This document shows positions 42,692-58,388 of a stretch of 64,000 nucleotides of DNA, one piece after another; positions within the stretch are counted from its first letter, which is position 1; each line of letters opens with the position of its first letter. The notes under the pieces were generated by a model. The model was given only the letters and a program-made list of their open reading frames with translations, was not told where the DNA came from and ran no database searches. The translations under genes were made by a program, and so were the position numbers. This DNA comes from a virus (lineage: Duplodnaviria; Heunggongvirae; Uroviricota; Caudoviricetes). The DNA lies in the IMG/VR virus record IMGVR_UViG_2851938318_000001, one strand, 5' to 3'.

Positions 42692-44251
42692 ATGACTGTT
42701 CGGATTGTATCTAACGCAGTAAATGCGCTTATTTCTGGCGCAGATGACAAGGTAAAGCAACTGGTGCAGCAAATGTTGAGCTACGAAGTCGAGACTGGCG
42801 ACTGGAAGGGCACAAGCACGATGTTCAACTGGAGTAAAAACTCGTTCCCTGCTGGCTTTGCCAAGCCTGTAGCAGCGAACTTGAACAAGGCGGGCATCAA
42901 ATGTGTTCATATCCGCAAAGACAAAGCCCCGGCGCTTGGTAAACCAAATCCGGCGGTTAACCCATTCCCATACAATCCTGATTATGCGTATCAGGATCAG
43001 ACTGTGGAAACACTGGTTCGAGAGGGAATGATGATTGCGCAGATCGCTACTGGTGGCGGGAAATCTAATGTTGCCTGCAAAGCAGCTGCACGTATCGGTC
43101 GAATGACATTATTTTTAACAACCCGCTCTGTTCTGATGTTTCAGATGGCCGAAAACTTCCAGAGATCCATCGACTACCGCGCCGAAAATGGCGAACCGTG
43201 GTTAAAAGACCAAAAGGTTGGAGTAATTGGCTCGGGTGAGTTCCAGGTATCACGACATATCAACGTCGCTACAGTTCAAACTCTTGCAAGTTTCCTTGAA
43301 GAACCACCACGCGATGCAACTCCAGATAAGAAAAGCTACCACCTCAAACGTCGGGAGTTGGTGAAACGCTTCCTTTCAAGTGTCTCTCTTCTTATTCTGG
43401 AAGAGGCGCATGAGTCTTCAGGCTCTAATTTCTATGACATTGCCAGATTATGTGCGAACGCAGACTATCGCCTGGCGCTTACGGCAACGCCGTTCATGAA
43501 GGATTCTACGGAAGCCAACATGCGTCTGATGGCTGTAGCCGGGCGAATTGAAATAAAAGTCACGGAAAAGTACCTGATTGATAGAGGAATTCTGGCAAAG
43601 CCATACTTCCTTTATCATAAAGTTGCCTACAAACCGGACGAGGTCAGAATCAAGGCAGAACTTGCTAACAAACACCTCAATTTTAGAGTAGGTATGAGCA
43701 CTGCCTACCAAAAGGCTTATCAGTTGGGGATCGTGTATAATTTGGGACGTAACGAGGCCATTGTGCGCGAAGCATTGCTCTATAAGCAACACTCTCTCAA
43801 CTGCATGACTCTGGTTCGTCTTAAACGCCACGGGCAAATCCTGATGGAGATGATGAAGGAGTCCGGTCTTAGAGTTGACTTCATCTATGGGGAATCGAAC
43901 CAGGCGACAAGGCAAGCAAAGCTGAACAGTTTAGCGTCTGGTGAAATAGATGTTTTAATAGGCTCGACTATTCTGGATGTCGGTGTTGATGTGCCAAGCG
44001 TTGGTGCGGTCATTCTTGCTGGTGGCGGGAAAGCAGAAGTTGAAATGAGACAACGTGTCGGTCGTGGCTTACGAGCCAAGAAGAATCAGGCAAACGTGTG
44101 TTTTATCACTGATTTCATTGACATTAGCAACAAATACCTGTTGTCTCACTCTTATGAGCGAAAACACATCATCGACACTACACCTGGCTTTGCAGAAGGT
44201 GTATTGCCAATTGATGGCACATTCGATTTTGGAGTTCTGAAACGAGATTAG
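42692..44251 (+). CDS. SF2 DEAD/DEAH-box family helicase
   Basis: 519 aa; motif I TGGGKS, motif II LEEAHE, motif III LTATP, motif VI QRVGRGLR; ATG preceded by AAGAGG. Confidence 0.75.
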   Translation: MTVRIVSNAVNALISGADDKVKQLVQQMLSYEVETGDWKGTSTMFNWSKNSFPAGFAKPVAANLNKAGIKCVHIRKDKAPALGKPNPAVNPFPYNPDYAYQDQTVETLVREGMMIAQIATGGGKSNVACKAAARIGRMTLFLTTRSVLMFQMAENFQRSIDYRAENGEPWLKDQKVGVIGSGEFQVSRHINVATVQTLASFLEEPPRDATPDKKSYHLKRRELVKRFLSSVSLLILEEAHESSGSNFYDIARLCANADYRLALTATPFMKDSTEANMRLMAVAGRIEIKVTEKYLIDRGILAKPYFLYHKVAYKPDEVRIKAELANKHLNFRVGMSTAYQKAYQLGIVYNLGRNEAIVREALLYKQHSLNCMTLVRLKRHGQILMEMMKESGLRVDFIYGESNQATRQAKLNSLASGEIDVLIGSTILDVGVDVPSVGAVILAGGGKAEVEMRQRVGRGLRAKKNQANVCFITDFIDISNKYLLSHSYERKHIIDTTPGFAEGVLPIDGTFDFGVLKRD

Positions 44252-44253
44252 TT

Positions 44254-44532
44254 ATGAGCGAAAAGAAAACAACTTATTGCCAAGTGGCATTGTCTGATAA
44301 AGCCAATGAAAAACTTGGAAAATTTCAAATAAAACTCAAAGAGAAAAAAATCAAGATGTCTAAGGCTGAAGTTATCAATGCCATTCTGGAGACGATGACT
44401 ATGGCTGAATTTGACAAAGTCACATCTGCCGTTGGGGTTTCCGCTAAGACGCGTGAGAAAATCATGCGCATCTATGAGAACTCCAATATGACAAAAAAAG
44501 ATCTAGAGGAAATACTGAGCAGGTTGCCGTAA
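44254..44532 (+). CDS. hypothetical small protein
   Basis: 92-aa Lys-rich ORF starting 3 nt after the helicase stop. Confidence 0.4.
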   Translation: MSEKKTTYCQVALSDKANEKLGKFQIKLKEKKIKMSKAEVINAILETMTMAEFDKVTSAVGVSAKTREKIMRIYENSNMTKKDLEEILSRLP

Positions 44533-44597
44533 CATTTCATATTTACCCCCTATCTACTAAATCTATGATGTGCTCACTTGTTAGAAAGGAGCACATC

Positions 44598-45164
44598 ATG
44601 AGTTGGTTAAAAGAATTATCATTTGTTGACACCACTGGCGCTAAGAAAAATCATTCTTTCTGGAAAGTCAGCGATCCTTCTGATTTTCTTGTTGGTGCTA
44701 ATGCTGCTTTTGAATTGCTTAACTTTTATCAACGTTATCCTGAAATGAAACACAGTCCACTCCTGTACAGAATAACAAACGATATGAATAGGTCTGGTTT
44801 ATTATCAAGTGAGTCAGCGAAAGGCTTTTTTAGCAAAATTACGCCTCACATATCATTCGATGCAGCAAACGAAATTGATTATCTATCCACAAAATCTCAA
44901 GAACAATTATCTGTGCCACCTGAGAAAAAAGAAAGACGAATTGCCAGCATTGAAAATATATCGAAAGAGCTTCGCACAACAACGTTGAGGCTGCTGAACT
45001 TTCTTACGCTACTTAATTGGATAGATGATCAAACATTGATTCCATCAACCGATGCGTTGGATAACAGAGTCCTTAGGCTGAACAAAAAATCGCAATTTGG
45101 TTTTGTGTTCACCAAAAAAGGTGAAGATTTAATCAAAAGAAAATATAGATTATTGAATGATTAA
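44598..45164 (+). CDS. hypothetical protein
   Basis: ATG 44598 preceded by AAAGGAG; AT-rich codon usage. Confidence 0.4.
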   Translation: MSWLKELSFVDTTGAKKNHSFWKVSDPSDFLVGANAAFELLNFYQRYPEMKHSPLLYRITNDMNRSGLLSSESAKGFFSKITPHISFDAANEIDYLSTKSQEQLSVPPEKKERRIASIENISKELRTTTLRLLNFLTLLNWIDDQTLIPSTDALDNRVLRLNKKSQFGFVFTKKGEDLIKRKYRLLND

Positions 45165-45549
45165 TAGTCTACATGCAGGTGTATGAGAGCACCTGCATGT
45201 GACATTCATCACATTTTTGAATGTATATACCTTCGGCTGAAAAAAGATCTTGATAGGCTGAATGATATTTGTAGGCTTCGCCTCCGAAGAAATTCGGAGG
45301 ATATATGCGACAATTTATAAAAACGTGTGACCTAAGAAATATAGTAGATGATATTGCATGTGATGAAATTAGCAAAAAAGAGAAGAACAAAAACGCCAAT
45401 TAACGCTATCTACCTATAAATCTGAAGAGTTCAATAGGATACATATCTGAAACACGCCCTCGACAATACCAAAAAGATTTGTCGAGGGCGTCGGGCTTTC
45501 CCTATGTCTGAACGATTAAATTTTACAGCAATTAAATATTTTGTATATG

Positions 45550-46350
45550 TTATTCTTCTGGTGGTACGACAAAATCGTCGAGCTTATTCTTTTCGTCCCG
45601 AAGCAACCTGATTTCTTCTTCTGTTATGCATTTGTCATAATCTGTTTGTTCAGAATGGCACAGCGCAACTGCGAATGGATAGCCGGTGTAAGACAGCCCT
45701 CTAACAGGTTCTAATTCACCGTTGTCTTTTTTCCTAAATTTGTAAAAGTCAGGAGTGTCATAATTGGTGACGCTAACAAGAGCATATTTATCATTTTCTC
45801 TTGCATACACTTCACTAACACCTCTCGATTCTCCCAACTCTCTACTCACATATGTCGAATCACTTGCAGCATCAAACACAGCCTGACCTAATGGAGTTTT
45901 TTTTAAATCATCTATTTTCTCTTTTTCTTTCCTGATTTTAGATTCGTTTTCCAGATAAAGTTTCACACCATTTTCTTTACATGCTAGATTTTGGCGTTCA
46001 AAACGTAATCGTTCACTTGCCGAGTTGGTACTTTTATCCATTGTAACGAATACAATCGGGTTACGTTCACGAACATCAAAGATGTGTGCATTGAATGCGG
46101 TCGCACCTGTATAGGCGTTCAAGACGTTTTTGCCATTCACCTCTCCACATACCATATATGAATAGCTATTTTCACCTAACTGAATAGCTCGCATATTCGT
46201 GAACCGACCAGCATCAGGATCTAGCAGTGTAGAGCGAATATCCTTTTCAACTAGATTTATGACTCGCTCTTCATCAGAATCACAACCTGTTAATAGTAAA
46301 GCCGCTATTAACAATGCTAATGAGTATTTTTTATTCACCCCATTCTTCAT
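45550..46350 (-). CDS. putative lipoprotein
   Basis: 266 aa; signal peptide with lipobox LTGC; shares a domain with the 160..573 lipoprotein. Confidence 0.5.
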   Translation of the reverse strand: MKNGVNKKYSLALLIAALLLTGCDSDEERVINLVEKDIRSTLLDPDAGRFTNMRAIQLGENSYSYMVCGEVNGKNVLNAYTGATAFNAHIFDVRERNPIVFVTMDKSTNSASERLRFERQNLACKENGVKLYLENESKIRKEKEKIDDLKKTPLGQAVFDAASDSTYVSRELGESRGVSEVYARENDKYALVSVTNYDTPDFYKFRKKDNGELEPVRGLSYTGYPFAVALCHSEQTDYDKCITEEEIRLLRDEKNKLDDFVVPPEE

Positions 46351-46452
46351 GAAACTTATTCCATAATCAATTTTTGGTGGAATGTACGGTTAGTCTGTCT
46401 ACGCATCATAGAGATGTATATAATGACCAAAAAAGACTTAAAAAGGTAGACT

Positions 46453-46974
46453 ATGGTTAAAGACATCACCTACGGCATACCGGCTGAAGTCTGGCCGCGA
46501 GACTACGAACATGCTGAAAACATACTTATGTTCTGGCGGAAGAACAACATTCCTGTAAGAGTCACGCTTGAAGACGGTCAGGTGTTTTGCATGTACGTTC
46601 AGGGGACAATGCCTTCCCGCAATAAGCTAGATTTATGCCCGCTTCCATATGATAAAGAAAATCGTATAAGACTCCCACTTGAGCGCATTAGCACAATTGA
46701 ATCAGGTGTAATCGATGGCATTGCTCGCGAGTTCAAAGGTAGGCTAACAATACATCCAGACTATGTTGACAATCAGCCATCACGCCGTGACTTTTTTGCG
46801 ATATGTCGCAAGGCTTATCAAAACGACCAATCTATAAGGGTCTACATGGCAGACGGTCGTGAAATAGAAGGGGTGTCAAGAGGCGTTGATGCTTGCCAGG
46901 TCACTCTTAAGTTAGAAGACGGCAGAAAAATACTTGTTTTCTTCGATTGGGTTGAACGAATCCTTCCTTTTTAA
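46453..46974 (+). CDS. hypothetical protein with an internally duplicated domain
   Basis: 173 aa; two similar halves (IPVRVTLEDGQVF / IRVYMADGREIEGV). Confidence 0.4.
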   Translation: MVKDITYGIPAEVWPRDYEHAENILMFWRKNNIPVRVTLEDGQVFCMYVQGTMPSRNKLDLCPLPYDKENRIRLPLERISTIESGVIDGIAREFKGRLTIHPDYVDNQPSRRDFFAICRKAYQNDQSIRVYMADGREIEGVSRGVDACQVTLKLEDGRKILVFFDWVERILPF

Positions 46975-47269
46975 ATCTATAAGGGTAATAACCGGCTAAG
47001 TCCGGTTATTATTTTACATGCCATTCATTTAAAACTCTTTCAATGCTACGCTGTATAAATATATAAGGTTAAAAGCCTGAATTGATTATTTATTTAGGGA
47101 ACACCTTCGACGATCTCGCTTTTATTTCTAGGACTTTCATCCCTGCAAAAAATTTAAAAAAAACACTTGCAATCTTTTTTCACGTATCGATAATTGAACT
47201 CGTCGAAAGCGAGCTAGCTAACGACAGTAAAAAATAAATTCATTTTAATTTTTCGTAAGGATGTCCATC

Positions 47270-47920
47270 ATGGCTAACATTATCATTTCTAAAAAATCCA
47301 TCATTGAAGCTGCTTCCATTGTATCCGATGAACTGCGCGAAAAAGCAGATCTGGCAACTCAAACATATAACGAACATTATAAAAATGGTACGCACACTAA
47401 AGCAGACAAAGCAAATATGCAAGCTGCGACCACTAAACTTGCTTACTTCATCAACAACGTTGTAAACGCTGTTGAAGACGAAAAATTATGCTCTGTTTTC
47501 TACTATGCAATTAAAGCAAGCAAACAAGCGCCAGAAGTATTTTTCCGTGATGCAATGACTAATAGTTATTCACTGGAAAAACTGGTTTATCTGGTTAAAT
47601 CCATTAAAGCTGGTAAATGTGTTTATTCCGTCGCTGATATGTCAGGATCTCGTGTATTCGCTTTAATCGATATGATTAACGACGAGATCGACACGTTCAC
47701 CAATGGCGCTGTTTTCGATTTAATGAATGAAGCTAAAAAAGCGTGTGAAATTAAATTGGACGCTGGATATACTCAAGCCAACCAGTTGATCAATCTTTGC
47801 GAACGTCTCGGACTTGTTGAAAAAGTCAAAGGAGCTGGGAGCGCCAAAGCTGGTACGCAGCAATATCGCTTCATTAAAAATGATTTCTACAATTATTTAG
47901 CTGATGCTTTCAAAGCGTAA
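47270..47920 (+). CDS. hypothetical protein
   Basis: Start placed at second ATG (47270), 9 nt after TAAGGA; hairpin gcgcccactttgggcgc follows the stop. Confidence 0.4.
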   Translation: MANIIISKKSIIEAASIVSDELREKADLATQTYNEHYKNGTHTKADKANMQAATTKLAYFINNVVNAVEDEKLCSVFYYAIKASKQAPEVFFRDAMTNSYSLEKLVYLVKSIKAGKCVYSVADMSGSRVFALIDMINDEIDTFTNGAVFDLMNEAKKACEIKLDAGYTQANQLINLCERLGLVEKVKGAGSAKAGTQQYRFIKNDFYNYLADAFKA

Positions 47921-47942
47921 TTAATGGAATCAAGCGCCCACT

Positions 47943-48173
47943 TTGGGCGCTTTAAAGGAGCTTTCAAAAATGGTCAGCTATGACAAGATCCGCGCGGAAT
48001 ATCGCGCAAAGTATCGCGCTTATAAACTGGAATTAATCGATGATTTGATCGCGCAACGCGACCAATTAAATTTTACGTTTTCTGATTTGCTTAACAGTAA
48101 ACGAGATTGTAAGCGTAAACGTGAATATTTACGTTTAAGCGCATTAATCGGAAAACTGCAAAATTCTATTTAA
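47943..48173 (+). CDS. hypothetical small basic protein
   Basis: 76-aa ORF, Arg/Lys-rich. Confidence 0.35.
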   Translation: MGALKELSKMVSYDKIRAEYRAKYRAYKLELIDDLIAQRDQLNFTFSDLLNSKRDCKRKREYLRLSALIGKLQNSI

Positions 48174-48193
48174 TTTTTTTAAGGAGCTTAATC

Positions 48194-48421
48194 ATGGTTA
48201 TTTTCATCTCTGGCGTAAATATCAATAATCATACTCTTGTTTATGATATTGCTGGTTTAGCTGGATATGCTCTAAGTTCTGAAGTGGTTGATGAAACAAC
48301 GTTTAAAATAAACATCAATGACGTAGAACATAGAGCGCGCGTAGGAATCAATGAAGCTGATGTTACTTTAATGCTTCAAGAATTTTTAAACGCTGGCTTT
48401 AATATTCACTTAGAAAAATAA
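48194..48421 (+). CDS. hypothetical small protein
   Basis: 75-aa ORF followed by a strong terminator. Confidence 0.35.
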   Translation: MVIFISGVNINNHTLVYDIAGLAGYALSSEVVDETTFKININDVEHRARVGINEADVTLMLQEFLNAGFNIHLEK

Positions 48422-48428
48422 AAACAAT

Positions 48429-48453
48429 AGCGCCCACTATGGGCGCTTTTTTT
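48429..48453 (+). terminator. rho-independent terminator closing the plus-strand accessory genes
   Basis: Hairpin agcgcccactatgggcgct followed by a T7 run; a second hairpin cgcgccaatgatggcgcg plus T-run lies at about 48476..48500. Confidence 0.6.
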
Positions 48454-48736
48454 CGTTTCCAATACTCCCACCATAACGCGCCAATGATGGCGCGTTTTTT
48501 ATTGTCTTTAACTCACTCCAACAACATAAAAATAAGCACCAAAATAACGCCATAGACGCGCTTTTATATCCTTGCCAGTACATACCCATTACTTAACACA
48601 TTAACGCGCTTAAAACGCGTTATAGCGCATAGTTAATCATTGGCTTTTAGTCTTGCTATGTAATCCGCGTTTAATTGTCGGCGCGGATCGGCATTTTGTG
48701 TTGTTCTGTATCCGCTCGCGTATTATGTGCGCGTGA

Positions 48737-49020
48737 TTTTTCACATAATCACACCACTTAATCACGTATGTGATTACGCTACGAAAGAAATCTGGATGTC
48801 TCAGGCGACGAAAGTCATCATAATTTTCCCCGCTCGCCTGTCCGACAACCGCTGGTTGGATTCCACCAGCTTCCCGATGTTTTTTCTACACAAAGGCGAA
48901 TGCAGCCGTTTCCCGAAAAAATCCTGGCCGTTCCCCGTCGGCTCATGAATACGTTCCTCGCCGTTTCTGAAAATTTCCCTGCGGCAGCTGGTGGCTATAG
49001 AGAAAGGGCCGTTTCTGGCC
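48737..49020. repeat. iteron-like direct repeat cluster 1 with a DnaA-box-like site
   Basis: GCCGTT(T)CC cores at 48905, 48927, 48960 and 49008 (22-, 33-, 48-bp steps); TTTTTCACA at 48737..48745. Confidence 0.5.
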
Positions 49021-49030
49021 CTCTTCTCAG

Positions 49031-49513
49031 TTACACGCCATCAAGGATGTGGATGCGGTTGCTTGCGTATACATTCAGCATAAAGTTAGCGCAAAACAGT
49101 TTCCATGTGTCAACGCCAGCGGTATACGTAATATTTTTGCATTTAATTGCATTGTTGGCGATCCGCATCCCCTGCGATACTGCTTCATCGTCGGAAAATT
49201 TGAACGACGATTGAGTTTTAATCCAGACAGAAATCTGCGTAGCGAACTCAATCAGCTTGGACTGGCAGAATCGCCCGGAGCGCACCGGAAAGACGAACGT
49301 TCCGAATCCAGAATTTACCACATACGCTTTCTCAAATACCCGCGAGTAACGACGATTACCAATGATGTCACGTGCAATAATGCATTTTTCTTGTGCTGAC
49401 AGTTCTACCGTCTCATTGTCGCGCCATGCACCAAGTACTCGTTTTTCAATGTCAGAGAACGTTACAGCGATATTGCCATGTGCGGGTGCGTTTACAGTAG
49501 CGATAAAATTCAT
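49031..49513 (-). CDS. hypothetical protein (early small-gene array)
   Basis: 160-aa ORF; conserved AAACAA-N-TTGTTTTCTT element at 49535..49570 upstream. Confidence 0.45.
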   Translation of the reverse strand: MNFIATVNAPAHGNIAVTFSDIEKRVLGAWRDNETVELSAQEKCIIARDIIGNRRYSRVFEKAYVVNSGFGTFVFPVRSGRFCQSKLIEFATQISVWIKTQSSFKFSDDEAVSQGMRIANNAIKCKNITYTAGVDTWKLFCANFMLNVYASNRIHILDGV

Positions 49514-49717
49514 GATTAATTCCTTATCGTAAATAACAAATTGTTTTCTTGTTGTTGTTAATTATCGCTGTACGAATAAGGCGTCAAAGTTGAAAACTAC
49601 GGTAGCCGGACGGGAACAGGTGGGTTTGTCGGTTGCCTGGAGGTAAGAGGTTGGTGTTTTTAGCCTGCGGGAAACAAGATGGTCATTTAAGGCCACCAGC
49701 ATTGGTGGCCTTATTCT

Positions 49718-49999
49718 TTAGTGGAGTAGAGCGATGTCGATGGTATCCCCTGAATCATCCACACGGATCATCAGCATGGCGAAGGCGTTTAGTGGATAAC
49801 TGGCGTGCCATTCAGGGAAGCGGTCATCTCGCATGAAGTCAGCAATGTCGTAAACGCAGCCCTCAAAGTGGAAGAATCGCGTGCTTACCTGCTCGTCATA
49901 ATCCACATGATCCATTTCTTGCTGTTCTGTTTCCGGCAAGTCCAGCCATGATTCGAGGAATACATTTTGTGCTTTGGTGGTAATGGTGAAATCAGTCAT
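49718..49999 (-). CDS. hypothetical small protein (array member)
   Basis: Start at second Met (49999), 7 nt after AGGA; N-terminal 19 codons lie in a 57-bp repeat shared with 50482..50540. Confidence 0.45.
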   Translation of the reverse strand: MTDFTITTKAQNVFLESWLDLPETEQQEMDHVDYDEQVSTRFFHFEGCVYDIADFMRDDRFPEWHASYPLNAFAMLMIRVDDSGDTIDIALLH

Positions 50000-50191
50000 G
50001 AGCATATCCTAACTGCGTAAACATGTTGTTTTCTTGTTGGTGTAATTATCGCAGTGTAGATAAGGCATAAAAGAAGTTAATACAGGCTGAATACGCAAGA
50101 AAGGTTCTGGAAGTTGATAGCTAGGTTTCAAACTAACCTTCGGTTATTAAAAGTCATTTAAGGCCACCAGCGTTAACTGGTGGCCTATATC

Positions 50192-50455
50192 TCATTGCTT
50201 TCGATGTGCTGCAACGAACTCTTTCAACGTTTCTAGCGCATGATAAAGACCGACGATATTTGAGCCGTAGTCGATGCAAACAGGGGAAAGTGATGTCTTC
50301 CCGTCGTGCGATGAATATGCCGATGTGGTAGTTGCAGGGTAATCGTGGCGATAGCAAACCGCAGTTTTTGGGTGTCGCAGATACGCTATCCCTCTTTCAA
50401 GATCATAAATTGCGCGTCGCAGGTCATGCTCCTGCGCTCTGGTCAATTTTGCCAT
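50192..50455 (-). CDS. hypothetical small protein (array member)
   Basis: About 87 aa from Met 50455. Confidence 0.4.
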   Translation of the reverse strand: MAKLTRAQEHDLRRAIYDLERGIAYLRHPKTAVCYRHDYPATTTSAYSSHDGKTSLSPVCIDYGSNIVGLYHALETLKEFVAAHRKQ

Positions 50456-50469
50456 CGTAATACTCTCAC

Positions 50470-50730
50470 TTAATGCGGCAAAGCCAGCCATGATTCGAGG
50501 AATACATTTTGTGCTTTTGGGGTAATGGTGAAATCAGTCATCGTGCCCCCCATCTCCTGCAACTGTGCAACGGTGATATCTGGACACAGCCCGTCGATCC
50601 ACACCCACACGTCAATGATGCTGTCACCGGCTTCAAAATGGTGAAATGCGCGCTCAAGCTGCTGATTGTTATCCACAGGCTCATTTGCTAGCTGCGCCCA
50701 GATTTGCTGGACTTGAGTAATAGTTTTCAT
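50470..50730 (-). CDS. hypothetical small protein, apparently chimeric
   Basis: 86 aa; last 24 codons (TMTDFTITPKAQNVFLESWLALPH) are a copy of the N-terminus of the 49718..49999 product; SD AGAGGA upstream. Confidence 0.45.
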   Translation of the reverse strand: MKTITQVQQIWAQLANEPVDNNQQLERAFHHFEAGDSIIDVWVWIDGLCPDITVAQLQEMGGTMTDFTITPKAQNVFLESWLALPH

Positions 50731-50843
50731 CTGCTTTCCTCTTGTTTTCTTGTTGTTGTAATTATCGAAGTTTAGATAAGGCAGAAAATAAATTGTTATC
50801 GGGCATAAGAAAATGGCGCGGTTTACGCGCCATTCAAAGAGGA

Positions 50844-51239
50844 TTAAGCGAATACGCTTTCAGGGATTAAGGTGTCGGCAGGAATGCCAGAGGTAATGCG
50901 CAGGCCGTACTGACCAATCCAGGTGGTGCTGGTGTTCAGGCTGGAGGTGAATACGGAATTAACCATACTCATCATGGTTTCAAACACCTCTTCATCAACC
51001 TGGCGGAAGTAGTTCTCGATTTTCAGCAGCAGTGGGTCAGTTGCATCGAGAATGGACTGGTATTGAGTCGCGTACTCGCCGCCGGAGGCATCACCTTTAC
51101 GCACGATCGTACTGGCCTGGACTTCGGCACCAGTTTCGGTGTTGTACGTAACAACGGTGATTTTTGCCACATTCTTACCTTCGGCAGTTTCAGAGGCATA
51201 GTAAACATCAACTGTCAGTTTTTCGCGTTTAACGGTCAT
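50844..51239 (-). CDS. hypothetical protein
   Basis: 131-aa ORF; palindromic motif gtaggtatgtacttac at 51283..51298 upstream. Confidence 0.4.
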   Translation of the reverse strand: MTVKREKLTVDVYYASETAEGKNVAKITVVTYNTETGAEVQASTIVRKGDASGGEYATQYQSILDATDPLLLKIENYFRQVDEEVFETMMSMVNSVFTSSLNTSTTWIGQYGLRITSGIPADTLIPESVFA

Positions 51240-51365
51240 TTCACTCTCCGTAGTGTATTGGTTATTTTTCTATTTTATAGTCGTAGGTATGTACTTACAA
51301 TACAAAAAAGCCCCGTAAGGATGGCGGGGCTGTCGTACTGTCGACTAATTACCACTTGCACATTA

Positions 51366-51707
51366 TCAGGCTATTGCCATCACTGATGCTCTCTGAATTT
51401 CTTGCTGGGCCACGCGGTTAACTTCCATCAAAGCCAGTTCGAGCTGATGTTCCGGCCACATTCTTTGAAATGCCACCCAGCCTTTTCCACGCTGGCGGCG
51501 AACATTCATTACATAACGAGTAAAGGTGTTTTTATCGAAAGACACCGCGGTTTCACGGAACAGACGAATAGAGGTTCCATTGGCAACGATGTCCAGCAAA
51601 GTTAATTGAGCAACCAGTGCAGGCTTCTCTTTTCTCTTCTGGTCTTTGTCCAGACCAAGAACCAATGATTTTTTCATCACAACTCCGTAAACAACTTGTT
51701 TTCTCAA
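51366..51707 (-). CDS. hypothetical basic protein
   Basis: 113-aa ORF; conserved upstream element at about 51700..51720. Confidence 0.35.
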   Translation of the reverse strand: MRKQVVYGVVMKKSLVLGLDKDQKRKEKPALVAQLTLLDIVANGTSIRLFRETAVSFDKNTFTRYVMNVRRQRGKGWVAFQRMWPEHQLELALMEVNRVAQQEIQRASVMAIA

Positions 51708-51830
51708 TGGCGTAAATAATACCAGTAAGAAAACGGCTACAAAGCATATTGATCAGGTGCATGAGCGATATGCAGGTTCTTCCCTGCGGCTACAGATTAA
51801 GTTAAGCCAGCAATGCTGGCTTAGATTGGT

Positions 51831-52181
51831 TTACGCGAATACCTCAAGAAACTCCTGAACGTCCCAATGCTGGACGAGGTGAAGATAGACCTTAGAAATC
51901 ACGTCATTCTCGCTATCGCATGTGAAGTAGTACTTCTGGCTGCGGTTGTATGTGTCCACACAAAATTCGCTCATATCCATAAAGTCAGCATCTTCACCCA
52001 GGTCGCAAATCATCAAAGCAGGTGCGTCATCACGAGTCATCAGCTCAAGCACCCACCGCGAATTGATCAGAGTGGAAGACCAACCTTCTAACTCATAAAA
52101 CTGATCAAACTCTTTTTGAGTTAATTTCTTGATTTGGTTGATGTCGATATGTGCAAACATAAAGCAATCCTTAAACAACAT
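51831..52181 (-). CDS. hypothetical acidic protein
   Basis: 116-aa ORF; conserved upstream element at 52176..52210. Confidence 0.4.
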   Translation of the reverse strand: MLFKDCFMFAHIDINQIKKLTQKEFDQFYELEGWSSTLINSRWVLELMTRDDAPALMICDLGEDADFMDMSEFCVDTYNRSQKYYFTCDSENDVISKVYLHLVQHWDVQEFLEVFA

Positions 52182-52334
52182 GTTTTCTTGTTGGTGTTAT
52201 TATCGTAATAACGCACAGGCGAAAAAGGATTTTATTCCGGTGAATGTGGTTTTGGCAGTGAGTTTTCAGGTTCAGTACCGAGTACACTTTTTACATTATT
52301 CTGATTTAGTGGCCGAAGGTGGCTGGTGGACAGA

Positions 52335-52652
52335 ATAATCCTCTCCCCGAAAACCTACTGAAATCGATTGTGACCCGCTGACTGTCTGGCACAATTACGC
52401 TGTAGCTGGGCATTCAGAGGGAATCCAGCGGTAAGCAAGTCCGCCTGCACGTGAGCGCCTCTCTTCTTCCCGCACATTGCAGGTGGGTAGCCGCAACTCT
52501 CCCTCTCGCTATACCGGTACGCCGCCGTTCCTGAACCGGCATTGAGCCTTTTCCCGAAATCCACACAGGCAACTCGACCGTTTCCCTGAAAACCTCCAGC
52601 CGTTCCCAAAGGCAACCCAGCCGTTTCTGTAGCGGGATGCAGCCTTTCCCCT
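52335..52652. repeat. iteron-like direct repeat cluster 2
   Basis: GCCGTT/GCCTTT cores at 52524, 52546, 52578, 52599, 52620 and 52642 (mostly 21-22-bp steps); related ctccccgaaaacc at 52335. Confidence 0.55.
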
Positions 52653-52789
52653 GTATGGACCGAAGGCTGACCGTAGGGGTGTTACGGGGGATAAAATCAG
52701 GAGTTGAATAAATACGAAAAAGGAGGCGACCCCCCTCCTTCCCTCCCCACTTATACATACCTGGCTTCTTCGCTATACATGTTGTGTTT

Positions 52790-53560
52790 TCTTCGTGTTT
52801 TATCTGTCTCAACCTCTCTATAGGCGTTAATGCTCACACCTTCCAGAACGTTCTATACGGCGACTAATTCTGTTGGTGAATTGGGTGTGTTGTTCTCTCT
52901 GTCGGTGTAAATGGTTTCGTTAGTTTTGCGGTGGTTCTTCTGTGGGATGTTCTCGTCGTTTTGGTGATTGTTCTTCTCCGTGTATGGAGTAAAGGCAGGT
53001 GGGCGATTCCTTTCGTTATTGTGTTTGAGTTGTTTGTCTGGAGTGTGTGAAGGGCTTTTGTAGTTATTCGTGTATTGGGTAATGGCGTTTCCCGTGATTG
53101 TTATGTTTCGTGTCTTTTGGGATTGAGAGAATCCTTGCGGTTACAGGCTTCGTTGGGGTTTCAGTGATTCTGGTGTTTCTTCGCTGTTTGGGTAATGGCG
53201 TGTCGTGGGTATCGCGCGTATGGAAGTTTCGAATTGCCTGTGAAAGTTAGGTTGGTTGTCCGGTAGCCTGCCATAAAGAGGTTGGTTGTTTTTGGAATGG
53301 CATATGTGTTATTTGGTTGTTTTGTTATACCTGAAAATAAGTTGTTTATATGGTTGTGTAACGCAACGGGAGCGATTTTGAGCGTGTGTTTTTGTTGGTA
53401 GTGTGTTTGGTCGTCTGTGGTGAAAATTGGACGCTGTGGCGCTGTCTGCTGCGTAGAATTACGGGTATAAGCAGTGATGTGTGAAAACGTCAATTTTTTA
53501 GACCAAATCGGGTGAAAGCGTTGATGTTTCGTTGATCTGTTATTCAGTTGTTTTCTTATT
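52790..53560. other. ORF-free GT-skewed tract (candidate non-coding RNA or origin-associated region)
   Basis: About 770 bp rich in G and T on the plus strand with short degenerate repeats (gggtaatggcgt twice; ggttggttgt several times); bounded by upstream-element-like sequences at 52787..52815 and 53536..53560. Confidence 0.4.
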
Positions 53561-53690
53561 GGTATAAACAACTATAACCTATTGATATTTAAGGATGTGA
53601 TTGCAGGTATAGAATGGGGGTAGTGGCGATCAACGGATTCTTATAGAAAAGAATCAAATTGTGACCGCCATTATCAATGAGTTGCAACCG

Positions 53691-54260
53691 TTAGTTGTTC
53701 AGATAAACATTTGGAACACGGACGTAGAAGTTCCTGTCGCCGGTAAGTTCCAGAGTAATGTTAATGTCATTACCATTGTCTAGTGTAGCCGTTGCTCTAT
53801 AGAACTTATCCGTCACCTTGTCCTCTATTGTCACCTTCATACATTTTGGTGCAGTCGAACCGTTATTCTCTTTCAGAATAGTTGTCACGAGAGGGCAGGC
53901 TGCTTCTTCAAGAGCAACCTCGTCCTTGTGTGGGATGCCGATGAAGATAACCCAAGCCAGCGACGCAACGATTATGATAAATGGCACTCTGCTGCCTTTT
54001 GTAATAGTCGCGCGCTTCCAGAGATAGACAGGCAGGAGGAATACCCCCCATAGAATTGAAGGTGGTTCACAGCCAGACTCCGATAGAGCCATTCTGTCAG
54101 CTACTAACAAACCGATGGTAGTTACACCCCCAATTATAATAGCGTAATTGGTATACTCTTCCGGCGATACTCCAAAGAAGAAAGGCATGAACGCTAGAAT
54201 CCACGCATAAATGTTATTCAGAGGTTTTGTTTGTTGGTTCTGGGTTTCCATCACATCCAT
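53691..54260 (-). CDS. hypothetical membrane protein
   Basis: 189 aa; about four predicted TM helices then a soluble C-terminal domain. Confidence 0.45.
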   Translation of the reverse strand: MDVMETQNQQTKPLNNIYAWILAFMPFFFGVSPEEYTNYAIIIGGVTTIGLLVADRMALSESGCEPPSILWGVFLLPVYLWKRATITKGSRVPFIIIVASLAWVIFIGIPHKDEVALEEAACPLVTTILKENNGSTAPKCMKVTIEDKVTDKFYRATATLDNGNDINITLELTGDRNFYVRVPNVYLNN

Positions 54261-54413
54261 TCCATCACATAAAAATCGCGTTTATATATTATCAATTTTC
54301 TCACTTGTATAACCTAAATACGCATCCGTTTATCAATCCACCTTCCACAAACATCAGCTTTAGCTATGAAAAATAACAATCTCAAAGTGAAAACCATTAT
54401 CATAGGATAACGA

Positions 54414-54599
54414 TTAGATGAGATGGTCTAATTCATCATCTATCATTGCTTTAACACTTGAGTCATTAACCCCGTATTGATTTATGAACCGTTTCAGCTC
54501 CGGTGAAAACTGAAGGTAGATATCGTGAGCGTTTTTCACTGTAGGTTCAACGCCACGCATTTCAAGCGCCTTTAGTAGATATGAGTCTTCTTTAAGCAT
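54414..54599 (-). CDS. hypothetical small protein
   Basis: 61-aa ORF. Confidence 0.3.
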   Translation of the reverse strand: MLKEDSYLLKALEMRGVEPTVKNAHDIYLQFSPELKRFINQYGVNDSSVKAMIDDELDHLI

Positions 54600-54635
54600 A
54601 AATTCTCCGTTGTCTAGTATGAAGCGATTGCCGGA

Positions 54636-54944
54636 TTACCATTGCCAGCACTCTAGCCCTTCAACGACCGGTGCACCACAATCAAAATGTACAGAGTCAA
54701 AGCCTACATCAAGTACTTTCTGAATGTTCGCAATCGCGCCCTCGGATATACCATATCGACGCAACTCATCTTTCCAGTCATCGTCCTGTAACCCAGCGTG
54801 GACAATGCAACCGTACTCAATTTGTGAAACCCAATCCAGCTCATTGCTTGCGATCATGAATCGGCGAGCATCTTCCTCTGATGTATGAGATGAGCTGATC
54901 AATGCCACCTGGTAGGCTTGGGTAATGTTCAACATTTCAACCAC
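54636..54944 (-). CDS. hypothetical small acidic protein
   Basis: 102-aa ORF; conserved upstream element at 54950..55010. Confidence 0.4.
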   Translation of the reverse strand: MVEMLNITQAYQVALISSSHTSEEDARRFMIASNELDWVSQIEYGCIVHAGLQDDDWKDELRRYGISEGAIANIQKVLDVGFDSVHFDCGAPVVEGLECWQW

Positions 54945-55042
54945 TCCAAAACAAGTTGTTTTCTTATGTGGTTTATTATCTCCATCAACAAAAGGCAGAA
55001 AACAAATTGTTTTAGGTACTGTGTAAATCAGAAGGGATTGTG

Positions 55043-55075
55043 TCTATATGAAAATGCCCGGCGTGTTGCCGGGCA
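55043..55075 (-). terminator. probable metG terminator
   Basis: Hairpin atgcccggc-gtgtt-gccgggcat just downstream of the metG stop, followed on the minus strand by a short T-rich run. Confidence 0.5.
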
Positions 55076-55096
55076 TTGCGAAGAGAGGTTGTTTAA

Positions 55097-57130
55097 TTAC
55101 TTAACCTGGTGGCCAGGTTTAGCACCAGCATCCGGGCTTAACAGGAAGATATCTTTCCCGCCGGGGCCAGCAGCCATCACCATGCCTTCAGAGATACCGA
55201 AGCGCATTTTACGTGGTGCCAGGTTAGCCACCATAATGGTGTGACGACCAATCAGTGCCTGTGGATCTGGATAAGCGGAACGGATGCCTGAGAAGACATT
55301 ACGCTTTTCACCACCGAGATCCAGCGTCAGGCGAAGCAGTTTGTCAGAACCTTCTACAAACTCTGCGTTTTCAATCAGCGCCACGCGCAGGTCAACTTTG
55401 GCGAAGTCGTCAAAGGTGATAGTTTCCTGAATCGGGTCGTCAGCCAGTGGGCCAGTTACCGGTGCGGCTGTGGCTTTCACTTCTTCTTTGGATGCTTCCA
55501 CCAGTGCTTCAACCTGCTTCATATCGATGCGGTTATACAGTGCCTTGAACGGATTCACTTTATGGCCCAGCAGCGGTTGCTGGATACCATCCCAGGTCAG
55601 TTCTGTATTCAGGAATGCTTCTGCACGTTCAGTCAGTTTCGGCAGTACCGGCTTCAGGTACGTCATCAGCACGCGGAACAGGTTAATGCCCATAGAGCAA
55701 ATCGCCTGCAGATCGGCATCGCGTCCTTCCTGCTTCGCCACCACCCACGGAGCCTGTTCATCGACATAGCGGTTAGCCAGGTCAGCCAATGCCATGATTT
55801 CACGGATAGCTTTACCAAATTCGCGGCTTTCCCACGCTTCACCAATCACTTCAGCGGCATCAGTGAAGGTTTTGTACAACTGCGGGTCAGCCAATTCGCT
55901 TGCCAGCACGCCGTCAAAACGCTTGTTGATAAAGCCCGCATTACGAGAGGCCAGGTTAACCACTTTGTTCACGATATCGGCATTCACGCGCTGAACGAAA
56001 TCCTCCAGGTTGAGATCGATATCATCAATGCGCGAAGAGAGTTTCGCAGTGTAGTAGTAACGCAGGCTGTCGGCGTCAAAATGATTCAGCCAGGTGCTGG
56101 CTTTAATAAAGGTGCCGCGAGACTTGGACATCTTCGCGCCGTTCACCGTCACATAGCCGTGAACAAACAGGTTGGTCGGCTTGCGGAAGTTGCTGCCTTC
56201 CAGCATGGCAGGCCAGAACAGGCTGTGGAAGTAAACAATATCTTTACCGATGAAGTGGTACAGCTCGGCGGTGGAGTCTTTCTTCCAGTATTCATCGAAG
56301 CTGGAGGTGTCGCCGCGTTTGTCGCACAGATTCTTGAAGGAACCCATGTAGCCAATCGGCGCGTCCAGCCAGACGTAGAAATATTTGCCCGGTGCGTTCG
56401 GAATTTCAAAACCGAAGTACGGCGCATCGCGGGAGATATCCCACTGTTGCAGACCAGATTCAAACCACTCCTGCATTTTGTTTGCCACCTGCTCCTGCAA
56501 CGCACCGCTGCGGGTCCATGCCTGCAACATTTCGCTGAAAGAAGGCAGATCAAAGAAGAAGTGTTCGGAATCACGCATTACCGGCGTAGCACCAGAAACT
56601 ACCGATTTCGGCTCGATCAGTTCAGTAGGGCTGTATGTCGCGCCGCAGACTTCACAGTTATCGCCGTATTGATCCGGCGCTTTACATTTCGGGCATGTGC
56701 CTTTCACAAAACGGTCCGGCAGGAACATGCCTTTTTCCGGGTCGTACAGCTGAGAGATGGTGCGGTTTTTAATAAAACCGTTCTCTTTCAGGCGAGTATA
56801 GATAAGCTCGGACAACTGACGGTTCTCTTCGCTGTGCGTCGAGTGATAGTTGTCATAGCTGATGTTAAAGCCTGCAAAATCAGTCTGGTGTTCCTGACTC
56901 ATTTCGCCAATCATCTGTTCCGGTGTGATACCAAGCTGCTGTGCTTTCAGCATGATCGGTGTGCCGTGGGCATCGTCGGCACAGATGAAATTAACCTCGT
57001 GGCCGCGCATTCGCTGGTAACGAACCCAGACATCAGCCTGGATGTGCTCCAGCATATGGCCGAGGTGGATTGAGCCGTTAGCGTACGGCAGCGCGCACGT
57101 CACCAGAATTTTCTTCGCGACTTGGGTCAT
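55097..57130 (-). CDS. metG: methionyl-tRNA synthetase
   Basis: 677 aa from [26 protein letters not shown] (HIGH motif), KMSKS motif present; the 720-aa track ORF has an N-terminal extension upstream of the real start. Confidence 0.95.
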
Positions 57131-57287
57131 AGTAGGCATTACTTCTTTGTAGTGAAAAGGGGCTTGATAGTAACAAAATGGCCTTATGTCTGCCATGTGA
57201 TAACAGCATTTCTCATAAATGATTAAATGCCGTAGCTGGAGTACACTACAAGGCGACAATTGCGCAAATTAAAATAAAGGAGACGGG

Positions 57288-58388
57288 ATGAGCGAGTCCA
57301 AATCGCCGGATGCCCTGAGAGCAATGGTAGCCGGTACGCTGGCTAATTTTCAGCACCCAACCCTGAAACACAATCTGACTACGCTTAAAGCGTTACACCA
57401 TGTTGCGTTGATGGATGACACACTGCATGTCGAACTAATCATGCCTTTCGTGTGGAATAAGCCTTTTGAAGACCTGAAAGAGCAATGTAGTGGTGATCTG
57501 CTCCGTATCACTGGCGCAAAGGCTATTGACTGGAAGCTGTCGTACAACATTGCCACGCTTAAGCGCGTCAAAAACCAACCAGGCATTAATGGCGTGAAGA
57601 ACATTATCGCCGTCAGCTCAGGCAAGGGCGGCGTTGGTAAATCCTCCACGGCGGTAAACCTGGCACTGGCGTTGGCTGCTGAAGGTGCGAAAGTTGGTAT
57701 TTTGGATGCCGATATCTACGGGCCATCAATTCCAACCATGCTTGGCGCGGAAAACCAACGTCCAACCTCACCGGACGGTACTCACATGGCACCGATTATG
57801 TCTCATGGACTGGCAACCAATTCAATTGGTTATCTGGTAACTGACGACAATGCGATGGTGTGGCGTGGTCCGATGGCGAGCAAGGCGTTAATGCAGATGT
57901 TGCAGGAAACTCTATGGCCTGATCTGGACTATCTCGTTCTCGATATGCCGCCGGGTACTGGTGATATTCAGCTGACGCTGGCGCAGAACATTCCTGTAAC
58001 TGGTGCTGTTGTGGTAACTACGCCGCAAGATATCGCGCTGATCGATGCGAAGAAAGGCATTGTGATGTTCGAAAAAGTCGAAGTGCCGGTACTGGGTATC
58101 GTCGAAAACATGAGTGTGCATATTTGCAGTAACTGCGGTCATCACGAGCCAATTTTTGGCACCGGTGGCGCACAGAAGCTGGCCGAGAAATACAACACGC
58201 AGTTGTTAGGCCAAATGCCACTTCATATCTCTCTTCGTGAAGATCTGGATAACGGAACACCAACCGTTATTAGTCGTCCAGATAGCGAATTTACGGCTAT
58301 TTATCGTGACCTCGCAGATCGCGTTGCTGCCCAAATGTATTGGCAAGGTGAAGTAATACCTGGCGAAATCGCATTCCGCGCAGTGTGA
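57288..58388 (+). CDS. apbC: iron-sulfur cluster carrier ATPase Mrp/ApbC
   Basis: 366 aa; deviant Walker A SGKGGVGKSS; CxxC near the C-terminus; divergent from metG as in E. coli. Confidence 0.9.
   Translation: MSESKSPDALRAMVAGTLANFQHPTLKHNLTTLKALHHVALMDDTLHVELIMPFVWNKPFEDLKEQCSGDLLRITGAKAIDWKLSYNIATLKRVKNQPGINGVKNIIAVSSGKGGVGKSSTAVNLALALAAEGAKVGILDADIYGPSIPTMLGAENQRPTSPDGTHMAPIMSHGLATNSIGYLVTDDNAMVWRGPMASKALMQMLQETLWPDLDYLVLDMPPGTGDIQLTLAQNIPVTGAVVVTTPQDIALIDAKKGIVMFEKVEVPVLGIVENMSVHICSNCGHHEPIFGTGGAQKLAEKYNTQLLGQMPLHISLREDLDNGTPTVISRPDSEFTAIYRDLADRVAAQMYWQGEVIPGEIAFRAV

What the first reader, a model, noticed from the sequence alone, without database searches (positions are those of the whole stretch)
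48737..49020. Second iteron cluster with DnaA-box-like site in a 600-bp ORF-poor region
Seen in sequence: between two strong terminators (48429..48500) and the stop of gene 49031..49513 lie about 550 bp with no convincing ORF. They contain palindromes (aacgcgcttaaaacgcgtt; aatcacgtatgtgatt), a DnaA-box-like TTTTTCACA and four GCCGTTTCC-type repeats. This is kept separate from the 52335..52652 cluster because its spacing is less regular and it has the extra DnaA-like and palindromic elements.
Basis: seen in the sequence. Interest (0 to 1): 0.45.

Follow-up and report, generated by a model that had tools for sequence, protein, structure and literature searches.

The report
Conserved repeat array in phage-plasmid gap
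The four GCCGTTTCC repeats are real and form one of two deeply conserved arrays of a 9-base motif in SSU5/pHCM2/pMT1-type phage-plasmids, most likely docking sites for a DNA-binding protein, but they are not the plasmid's replication origin, and the supposed DnaA box next to them is a chance match.

Summary
The window is E. coli plasmid pRM9131-1, an SSU5/pHCM2/pMT1-type phage-plasmid.

- **Conserved elements.** Across about 18 diverged lineages and three remote relatives, two things survive: the four GCCGTTTCC repeats (48905-49016) and the block around the first palindrome (48603-48621).
- **Non-conserved elements.** TTTTTCACA is a chance-level match, and its surroundings are the least conserved part of the gap.
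- **Second array.** The same 9-bp motif forms a second array at 52525-52651, in the same orientation. Nine of the ten top-scoring sites in the 117-kb plasmid lie in these two arrays.
- **Arrangement.** The arrays bracket a variable leftward operon, and each one abuts a minus-strand terminator.
- **Not the plasmid origin.** The real plasmid origin is about 49 kb away. It has repA, different iterons (TATCCACTGTAG type), TTATCCACA boxes and GATC runs.
- **No gene or RNA.** No conserved ORF, Rfam match, covariation or unusual folding energy was found.
- **Candidate binder.** A conserved predicted winged-helix protein (47261-47920) is the only gene always adjacent to the gap.

Best reading: these are iteron-like protein-binding arrays in a transcriptionally insulated cis-acting module. 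A phage-mode origin role, as in P4 ori/crr or SPP1 oriL/oriR, is possible but unproven.

The parts
48429..48496 (+). Two tandem intrinsic terminators that end the rightward operon. The first (48429-48447) is also terminator-like on the - strand. They form the left boundary of the insulated gap.
   Evidence: Terminator scan. Nearly invariant in 12 lineages.
48545..48625 (.). Left-half block with ACGCG(C)TT-type motifs. It includes the palindrome aacgcgcttaaaacgcgtt at 48603-48621.
   Evidence: Three of the 7 window matches to ACGCGYTTW lie within 48556-48620. The CGCTTAAAACGC block recurs in the divergent group and in remote relatives L292 and L295; L294 has only a loosely similar stretch. Column identity at 48606-48625 is 0.73. 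Function not tested.
48737..48775 (.). DnaA-box-like TTTTTCACA (48737-48745) and the TAATCAC / aatcacgtatgtgatt repeats. This is a lineage-specific, poorly conserved segment.
   Evidence: TTWTNCACA is at chance level. Column identity is 0.35-0.44. Only 'TTCACATAATCACA' is shared with other lineages.
48796..48948 (+). RefSeq-annotated 50-aa CDS (WP_023145150.1), judged spurious.
   Evidence: Annotation. Frame and length are not conserved.
48863..48870 (-). Chi site (GCTGGTGG on the - strand), left of repeats 1-3.
   Evidence: The inverted pair with 48987-48994 is repeat I5. CCACCAGC is kept in most enteric lineages.
48905..48968 (+). Repeats R1 (48905-48913 GCCGTTTCC), R2 (48927-48935 GCCGTTCCC) and R3 (48960-48968 GCCGTTTCT). 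This is the core of array A.
   Evidence: It is the best-conserved part of the gap, at 0.80-0.87. R1 plus its flank is invariant over 15 nt in 22 lineages.
48987..48994 (+). Chi site (GCTGGTGG), right of repeat 3.
   Evidence: Conserved in most enteric lineages.
49000..49028 (-). Intrinsic terminator of the leftward gene 49031..49513. Its loop and 3' arm carry repeat R4 (49008-49016 GCCGTTTCT).
   Evidence: It is the only robust hairpin in the RNA folds. The stem changes in a compensatory way (GGGCC/GGCCC versus GGGGC/GCCCC versus GCGCC/GACGC) while the motif is kept.
52525..52651 (+). Array B: six units of the same motif at 22-29 bp spacing, in the same orientation. It lies just beyond the minus-strand terminator at 52716-52741 and upstream of the leftward operon.
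   Evidence: Conserved across lineages, in SSU5 and in remote relative L295.
47261..47920 (+). Candidate binding protein: 219 aa, phrog_1513, with an N-terminal helical bundle and a C-terminal predicted winged helix.

Best explanation
**What is shown.**

- The four GCCGTTTCC repeats are the core of a deeply conserved, non-coding module of SSU5/pHCM2/pMT1-type phage-plasmids.
- The module is closed off from transcription by terminators on both sides.
- Array A (48905-49016) and array B (52525-52651) carry the same 9-bp motif, all in one orientation. Together they hold nine of the ten high-scoring sites in the 117-kb element.
- The arrays bracket a variable leftward operon of small genes (49031-52181). 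Each array lies just past a minus-strand terminator.
- The arrays are not the RepA/IncFIB plasmid origin.

**What is inferred.**

- The arrays act as DNA. They are rows of docking sites (iteron-like) for a sequence-specific protein encoded by the element.
- The best candidate is the predicted winged-helix protein at 47261-47920. It is the one gene that stays next to the gap across all relatives.
- Binding in register along each array, and possibly pairing of the two arrays, would build a nucleoprotein complex.
- Among the possible roles, I rank a phage-mode replication origin or enhancer first, at roughly one in three. Phage P4 (ori plus crr) and SPP1 (oriL plus oriR) have that design. The element also carries a T4-like replication and recombination gene set, with a helicase gene just upstream.
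- Operator or insulator arrays controlling the bracketed operon come second. A partition site comes third.
For: **Motif clustering.** 8 of the 14 CCGTTYCY sites in the plasmid lie in the two arrays, all on the + strand. All matrix scores of at least 14 bits lie in the arrays except one. Information is confined to a 9-bp core.

**Conservation.**
- 48902-49016 is the best-conserved part of the gap over 18 lineages.
- R1 plus its flank is invariant in 22 lineages that are otherwise 40-60% identical.
- Spacing of 22-24, 33-34 and 48 bp is kept.
- The two-array layout is kept at separations of 1.5-4.2 kb.

**Remote relatives.** Their winged-helix proteins match only at E 1e-29 to 1e-35. They keep the same synteny and end their gaps with TTTCCC-type arrays plus a hairpin whose loop carries GTTTCC or a near variant. 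L295 and SSU5 also have the second array.

**Shared content of A and B.** The two arrays share only the repeat units, not flanking sequence. This fits two sets of sites for one factor rather than a duplicated gene.

**DNA-level behaviour.** Relatives show deletions of exactly 22 nt.

**Against an RNA or a protein product.** No Rfam hit. Covariation term about 0. Fold z-scores -0.67 and +0.18. The ORF is not conserved.

**Insulation.** Terminators lie on both sides.

**Candidate binder.**

**Replication context.** UvsW-like helicase, gp32-like SSB and SbcC-like genes, and dnaE, RNase H and ligase.
Against: - No binding, replication or expression data exist for this locus.
- Against an origin: no conserved DnaA box, no GATC cluster, no GC-skew turning point, only a modest AT-rich stretch (35-40% GC) 250-400 bp away, and a site of convergent rather than divergent transcription.
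- R3 to R4 spacing (48 bp) is out of helical phase.
- The motif stays nearly unchanged while the candidate protein diverges. That could instead point to a host factor or to an RNA-level role.
Confidence: 0.55

Rival explanations
1. The region is a replication origin built from iterons plus a DnaA box, and DnaA and/or the plasmid Rep protein act on it.
For: The array looks like iterons. TTTTTCACA fits the relaxed DnaA consensus. The gap is ORF-poor and insulated.
Against: The RepA origin, with its own different iterons, TTATCCACA boxes and GATC runs, is about 49 kb away. The DnaA-like box is at chance level and not conserved. A relative with another replicon type keeps the array. There is no skew turning point.
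Confidence: 0.05
2. The repeats act as RNA. On the minus strand they read GGGAAACGG, and several sit in the loops of short GCCG/CGGC hairpins, as does the terminator loop. They could be binding sites for an RNA-binding protein. Candidates are a CsrA-like GGA binder, the FljA-like protein encoded at 46453..46974, or an antitermination factor that lets transcription pass the adjacent terminators, as at lambda nut or HK022 put sites.
For: Each array lies immediately downstream of a minus-strand terminator. Motif R4 is kept in the terminator loop while the stem covaries. G-U pairs show that the B terminator works on the minus strand. A PF03614 (FljA) homologue lies nearby. The motif is unusually constant while neighbouring proteins diverge.
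Against: No Rfam hit. No covariation outside the terminators. Folding energy is ordinary. No convincing promoter was found. The most conserved bases are AAACGG rather than GGA, and R3 lacks GGA. The FljA-like gene is missing from two of the three remote relatives examined (L292, L294), which still have the arrays. Y. pestis RNA-seq lists only two pMT1 sRNAs (sR082, sR083), and both lie outside the stretch homologous to this gap.
Confidence: 0.17
3. The gap encodes a small protein, and the repeats are conserved because they are coding sequence. The candidate is the RefSeq 50-aa CDS at 48796..48948 or another short ORF.
For: PGAP calls the CDS in this record and in some other E. coli records.
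Against: The frame relative to R1 differs (0, 1 or 2), length varies from 4 to 83 aa, and the start is absent in Klebsiella-type and divergent lineages. Indels are not multiples of three. The minus-strand short ORFs are also not conserved, judged by direct reading of alignment A1.
Confidence: 0.03
4. The arrays have no sequence-specific partner. They would be C-rich, G-poor tracts that serve as Rho loading sites to stop antisense (+ strand) transcription. Or they would simply be conserved flanks that promote cassette exchange of the variable operon by recombination, helped by the nearby Chi sites.
For: The + strand is C-rich over the arrays, with GC skew about -0.15 to -0.3 over most of 48830-48980. 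The gene content between the arrays varies (1.5-4.2 kb). Chi sites flank R1-R3, and Chi is 9-fold enriched in the window.
Against: Rho loading sites are not sequence-conserved, yet here a 15-nt string is invariant over lineages that are otherwise 40% identical. The same 9-mer is reiterated with conserved spacing.
Confidence: 0.15

Closest known systems
Phage P4 ori plus crr, and Bacillus phage SPP1 oriL plus oriR (from established knowledge, not tested here)
   Same: In both systems the same short initiator-binding repeats form two separate clusters kilobases apart on one genome. In P4 and SPP1 the binding protein uses a winged-helix-type domain and is encoded by the phage.
   Different: No initiator, helicase loader or replication start has been tied to these arrays. 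The candidate protein has no detectable sequence or fold relationship to P4 alpha or SPP1 G38P beyond a generic winged helix. The arrays here follow terminators and bracket an operon.
Iteron origins of RepA-type plasmids (RepFIB, P1 oriR/incA), including this plasmid's own origin
   Same: Direct repeats in one orientation at roughly 22-bp spacing, in two groups.
   Different: This plasmid's RepA iterons are a different sequence (TATCCACTGTAG type) and flank repA about 49 kb away, together with DnaA boxes and GATC runs. None of those accessory elements is conserved at the finding.
Centromere arrays of type Ib, II and III partition systems (R1 parC, tubC bound by TubR)
   Different: No partner NTPase gene lies next to the candidate protein. 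The arrays are not upstream of a par operon. The fold match is generic.
Lambda nutL/nutR and HK022 putL/putR (RNA sites for processive antitermination)
   Same: Two copies per genome, each in one transcription unit and close to terminators.
   Different: No conserved stem-loop, boxA/boxB or put-like structure was found. Here the arrays lie after the terminators, not before them.

Membership tests
RepA/IncFIB iteron origin of this plasmid | Repeats match the iterons that flank the plasmid's rep gene | tested here: not met
   Iterons beside repA read TATCCACTGTAGTGAG or CCACTATAGAGAG. The finding's repeats read GCCGTTTCC.
RepA/IncFIB iteron origin of this plasmid | Lies next to the rep gene | tested here: not met
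   repA is at record position 1-1056. The finding is at about record position 49,500-49,700.
RepA/IncFIB iteron origin of this plasmid | Conserved DnaA boxes, GATC cluster and AT-rich unwinding element beside the iterons | tested here: not met
   The single TTTTTCACA is at chance level and not conserved. There is one GATC in the gap. The AT-rich stretch is modest and 250-400 bp away.
Iteron-like protein-binding array (generic) | Several copies of one short motif in the same orientation, clustered far beyond chance | tested here: met
Iteron-like protein-binding array (generic) | Motif and spacing conserved across diverged relatives while spacers vary | tested here: met
   Remote relatives.
Iteron-like protein-binding array (generic) | A specific protein binds the repeats | not testable with these tools
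   There is only a candidate, the predicted winged-helix protein at 47261..47920.
Two-cluster phage origin (P4 ori/crr, SPP1 oriL/oriR type) | Two separate clusters of the same repeat on one genome | tested here: met
   Arrays A and B are 3.6 kb apart, and the layout is conserved.
Two-cluster phage origin (P4 ori/crr, SPP1 oriL/oriR type) | Replication starts at, or depends on, the clusters | not testable with these tools
   No marker-frequency or functional data. GC skew is uninformative.
CsrB/RsmZ-type or other structured small RNA | Match to a curated RNA family, or a conserved structure with covariation | tested here: not met
   No Rfam hit at E up to 1. Covariation terms are 0.03 and -0.61 kcal/mol. 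Fold z-scores are -0.67 and +0.18.
CsrB/RsmZ-type or other structured small RNA | Own promoter and terminator that delimit a transcript over the repeats | tested here: inconclusive
   No conserved sigma-70-like promoter was found. Terminators lie upstream of the arrays on the minus strand. No expression data cover this locus.
Protein-coding gene (RefSeq CDS 48796..48948) | Reading frame and length conserved in relatives | tested here: not met
Intrinsic terminators bounding the gap | GC-rich hairpin followed by a U-run, with the hairpin kept by compensatory changes | tested here: met
   Compensatory stem changes are, and G-U pairs on the minus strand at array B.

The most novel reading that the evidence does not exclude
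The two arrays, together with the adjacent predicted winged-helix protein, would form a previously undescribed cis/trans system common to the whole SSU5/pHCM2/pMT1 supergroup. One version is a phage-mode replication origin. It would be used alongside a T4-like replication and recombination set and be independent of the RepA plasmid origin. The other version is a boundary system that defines and controls the early, anti-defence-type operon, for example by looping, or as an injection or transcription stop.
Probability: 0.3. Interest if true: 0.65.

Novelty: new variant of a known kind. Interest (0 to 1): 0.45.

Why it matters
SSU5-type phage-plasmids are widespread in clinical Escherichia, Klebsiella, Salmonella and Enterobacter. 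They include pHCM2 of S. Typhi and pMT1 of Y. pestis, and some carry resistance genes. How they switch from plasmid maintenance to phage replication is not known, and no phage-mode origin or control site has been mapped.

This locus is a compact non-coding module that stays constant while surrounding genes drift to 30% identity, and it comes with a candidate binding protein. That makes the question directly testable by deleting or cloning it. The result also corrects the annotation: the 50-aa CDS is probably spurious. It further shows that this finding and the one at 52335..52652 are a single system.

Tried and rejected
- **Rfam.** A scan of 44000-56000 at E up to 1 gave only sub-threshold hits on the terminators.
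- **Consensus RNA folding.** Folding of both arrays gave only tiny hairpins and no covariation. Single-sequence folds are no better than shuffles.
- **Pattern scans of viral contigs.** Scans for spaced CCGTTTCC repeats and for the array-B 15-mer returned mostly chance hits or coding repeats. Clusters occur only in this phage-plasmid family.
- **Y. pestis RNA-seq.** The two pMT1 sRNAs it lists both lie outside the stretch homologous to this gap.
- **Literature.** The LF82/Cyrano paper and the phage-plasmid surveys say nothing about this locus.
- **GC skew.** It rises monotonically from repA, with no turning point here.
- **Packaging-site idea.** The locus is internal in SSU5 and in all phage records and is about 10 kb from the terminase genes. 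The idea is not excluded, but nothing supports it.
- **FljA-like RNA-binding protein as partner.** The gene is absent from two of the three remote relatives examined, which still have the arrays.
- **Promoter checks by eye.** I looked for sigma-54 and sigma-28 promoters and for known E. coli regulator sites. Nothing fitted; this rests on memory of consensus sequences only.

Full report
**Identity of the window**

The window is 100% identical to E. coli RM9131 plasmid pRM9131-1 (NZ_CP028430.1, 117 kb, IncFIB), read as the reverse complement. It is an SSU5/pHCM2/pMT1-type phage-plasmid. Phages Cyrano, PhiR41_1 and CMS-2020a are about 95% identical over the locus. In total 765 plasmid records from Klebsiella, Escherichia, Enterobacter, Yersinia, Salmonella and others match part of it.

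**The observation**

The finding lies in a gap where transcription converges.

- A rightward operon ends at 48421, followed by two strong terminators at 48429-48447 and 48475-48496.
- A leftward gene, 49031..49513, ends with its own terminator hairpin at 49000-49028.

**What exceeds chance**

- A relaxed DnaA box (TTWTNCACA) occurs 5 times in the window against 6.7 expected.
- CCGTTYCY occurs 14 times in the whole 117-kb plasmid. Eight of these lie in two places, 48906-49016 and 52525-52628, all on the + strand.
- A weight matrix built from the units has information only in a 9-bp core, GCCGTTTCC.
- Every site in the plasmid scoring at least 14 bits lies in these two arrays, except one inside a coding region.
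- So this cluster and the 'other' cluster at 52335..52652 belong to one system. Array B has six units at 22-29 bp spacing.

**Conservation**

I aligned the gap from 12 annotated plasmids and then from 89 loci, reduced to 18-28 lineages that are only 38-60% identical over the gap.

- The best-conserved stretch is 48902-49016, at 0.80-0.87 column identity.
- R1 with its flank (GCCGTTTCCCGAAAA) is invariant.
- The spacings of 22-24, 33-34 and 48 bp are kept.
- The segment holding the DnaA-like box and the second palindrome is the worst conserved, at 0.35-0.44.
- The block around the first palindrome is moderately conserved (0.73). It recurs as CGCTTAAAACGC in the divergent group and in remote relatives L292 and L295; L294 has only a loosely similar stretch.
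- Relatives show deletions of exactly 22 nt that remove one unit in array A (Klebsiella pCRE-234_3) or in array B (PhiR41_1).
- Array B is conserved too. It always has the same orientation as A and lies 1.5-4.2 kb away, depending on how many small genes sit in between.
- A and B share nothing but the repeat units.

**Not the plasmid origin**

- repA sits at record position 1-1056, about 49 kb from the finding.
- Both of its flanks carry a different iteron (TATCCACTGTAGTGAG or CCACTATAGAGAG), canonical TTATCCACA boxes and runs of GATC.
- pSAN1-1735, typed with a different replicon, still has array A.
- Cumulative GC skew rises steadily from repA and has no turning point at the finding.

**Not a gene or a structured RNA**

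- RefSeq calls a 50-aa CDS at 48796..48948. In relatives its frame relative to R1 is 0, 1 or 2, its length is 4-83 aa, and its start is missing in several lineages.
- Rfam gives nothing at E up to 1 apart from weak hits on the terminators.
- Consensus folding finds three tiny hairpins with a covariation term of 0.03 kcal/mol for array A and -0.61 for array B.
- Folding energies are ordinary: z -0.67 (+ strand) and +0.18 (- strand) for A.
- Only the terminator hairpins are supported. The stem at 49006-49021 changes in a compensatory way between lineages, and the array-B terminator keeps G-U pairs on the minus strand.
- The motif persists in the loop of the array-A terminator even when the stem sequence changes.
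- Published Y. pestis RNA-seq lists two pMT1 small RNAs, and both lie outside the stretch homologous to this gap.

**Neighbours and a candidate partner**

- All neighbouring proteins lack Pfam domains, except an FljA-type repressor homologue at 46453..46974.
- The 160-aa protein next to the array is restricted to this family. It folds confidently but matches no known structure. It is only 31% identical in the most divergent group, where the motif is unchanged.
- The 219-aa protein at 47261..47920 is 62% identical in that same group.
- A profile search of 1.84 billion representatives finds only 23 relatives.
- Three remote relatives (E 1e-29 to 1e-35) sit in the same gene order: two ParB_N proteins, a UvsW-like helicase, the winged-helix gene, a terminator, a 600-790 bp gap, then convergent genes.
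- Their gaps again end in arrays of a TTTCCC-type motif, plus a hairpin whose loop carries GTTTCC or a near variant.
- L295 and SSU5 itself also have the second array beyond the leftward operon.
- In these remote relatives the winged-helix gene directly precedes the gap, while the genes on the other side differ.
- This is the strongest comparative signal linking a protein to the module. It remains an inference.

**Other features**

- Chi sites (GCTGGTGG) are 9-fold enriched in the window, 13 against 1.4 expected.
- One Chi on each strand flanks R1-R3, at 48863-48870 (-) and 48987-48994 (+). By the established rule that RecBCD recognises Chi from its 3' side, each faces an enzyme approaching from outside.
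- Most enteric lineages keep both sites, and the most divergent group has neither. I record this but do not build on it.
- The element carries a T4-like replication and recombination set: gp32-like SSB, SbcC/SbcD-like proteins, a UvsW-like helicase, RNase H, DnaE and ligase.

**Interpretation**

Shown:
- Two conserved, oriented arrays of one 9-bp motif bracket a variable operon.
- The module is non-coding and is bounded by terminators.
- It is distinct from the RepA origin.

Inferred:
- The arrays are DNA docking sites for one sequence-specific protein, with the winged-helix protein as the best candidate.

The role stays open:
- I rank a phage-mode origin or enhancer first, at about one in three. 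It fits the iteron geometry, the two clusters (as in P4 ori/crr and SPP1 oriL/oriR), the adjacent helicase and DNA-binding genes, and the insulation from transcription.
- Operator or insulator arrays for the bracketed operon come second.
- A partition site comes third.
- An RNA-level role of the minus-strand GGGAAACGG repeats next to the terminators remains a live rival, at about 0.17. A composition-only or recombination-flank reading is at about 0.15.

**Novelty**

I found no description of this locus in the papers searched. It is a new variant of a known kind of element, iteron-like binding arrays, in a medically widespread family. Interest is moderate: the structure is clear and testable, and the function is unproven.

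Noticed in passing
window 52182-53690: This 1.5-kb stretch has no RefSeq gene. Beyond array B and the terminator at 52716-52741, about 900 bases are strongly G+T-rich on the + strand (A+C-rich on the - strand). It holds loose 20-31-nt direct repeats such as TTATTCGTGTATTGGGTAATGGCGTTTC. A similar pyrimidine-rich, ORF-poor tract follows array B in remote relative L295.
   Followed up: partly
window, whole (for example 7187, 19241, 27799, 36667, 39537, 48863, 49693, 50164, 58668 on the - strand; 24956, 44018, 48987, 52322 on the + strand): Chi (GCTGGTGG) occurs 13 times against 1.4 expected, with 9 of the 13 on the - strand. Two of the four + strand sites lie next to arrays A and B.
   Followed up: partly
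window 49514-49560 and 52182-52232: The leftward small genes share a similar leader just upstream of their start codons. On the - strand it reads CGATAAT(T)AACA(A/C)CAACAAGAAAACA... ATG. Pieces of 28-51 nt recur at several places in related loci.
   Followed up: no
window 49718-50005 (-): This 95-aa protein is labelled 'ABC transporter' in RefSeq. It is a small, very acidic protein with no Pfam match (phrog_1845). It is the best-conserved protein of the leftward operon, 68-71% identical in the divergent group. The label looks wrong; it may be an anti-restriction-type DNA mimic (a guess from composition only).
   Followed up: partly
window 46453-46974 (+): This is a full-length homologue of FljA, the repressor of phase-1 flagellin (PF03614, E 5e-81). 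Its C-terminal part has a sub-threshold Hfq-like match (E 0.0012). It is conserved in the family and duplicated in one remote relative (L296).
   Followed up: partly
window 48796-48948 (+): The RefSeq 50-aa CDS WP_023145150.1 overlaps repeats R1-R2 and is probably a false gene call. Its frame and length are not conserved.
   Followed up: yes
L015 13968-14651 and L016 14426-15667 (plasmid record 13968-14651 and 112925-114166): Two halves of an SbcC/Rad50-like ATPase gene lie far apart, each next to an IS1203 copy. This suggests an IS-mediated rearrangement. nrdA and a 5'-3' exonuclease gene are also split by insertion sequences, so this copy of the phage-plasmid is probably defective as a phage.
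   Followed up: no
window 55097-57259 (-) and 57288-58388 (+): The phage-plasmid carries a full methionyl-tRNA synthetase gene and an ApbC/Mrp-type P-loop ATPase gene, annotated in Cyrano as a septum site-determining protein. According to the LF82 paper the latter is expressed in lysogens.
   Followed up: no
L292 5686-5780: In a remote relative, a 29-aa hydrophobic ORF (MKSLFTKVFQFILIGVLVVPLVWWWMLAF) sits between two terminators, right after the winged-helix gene.
   Followed up: no
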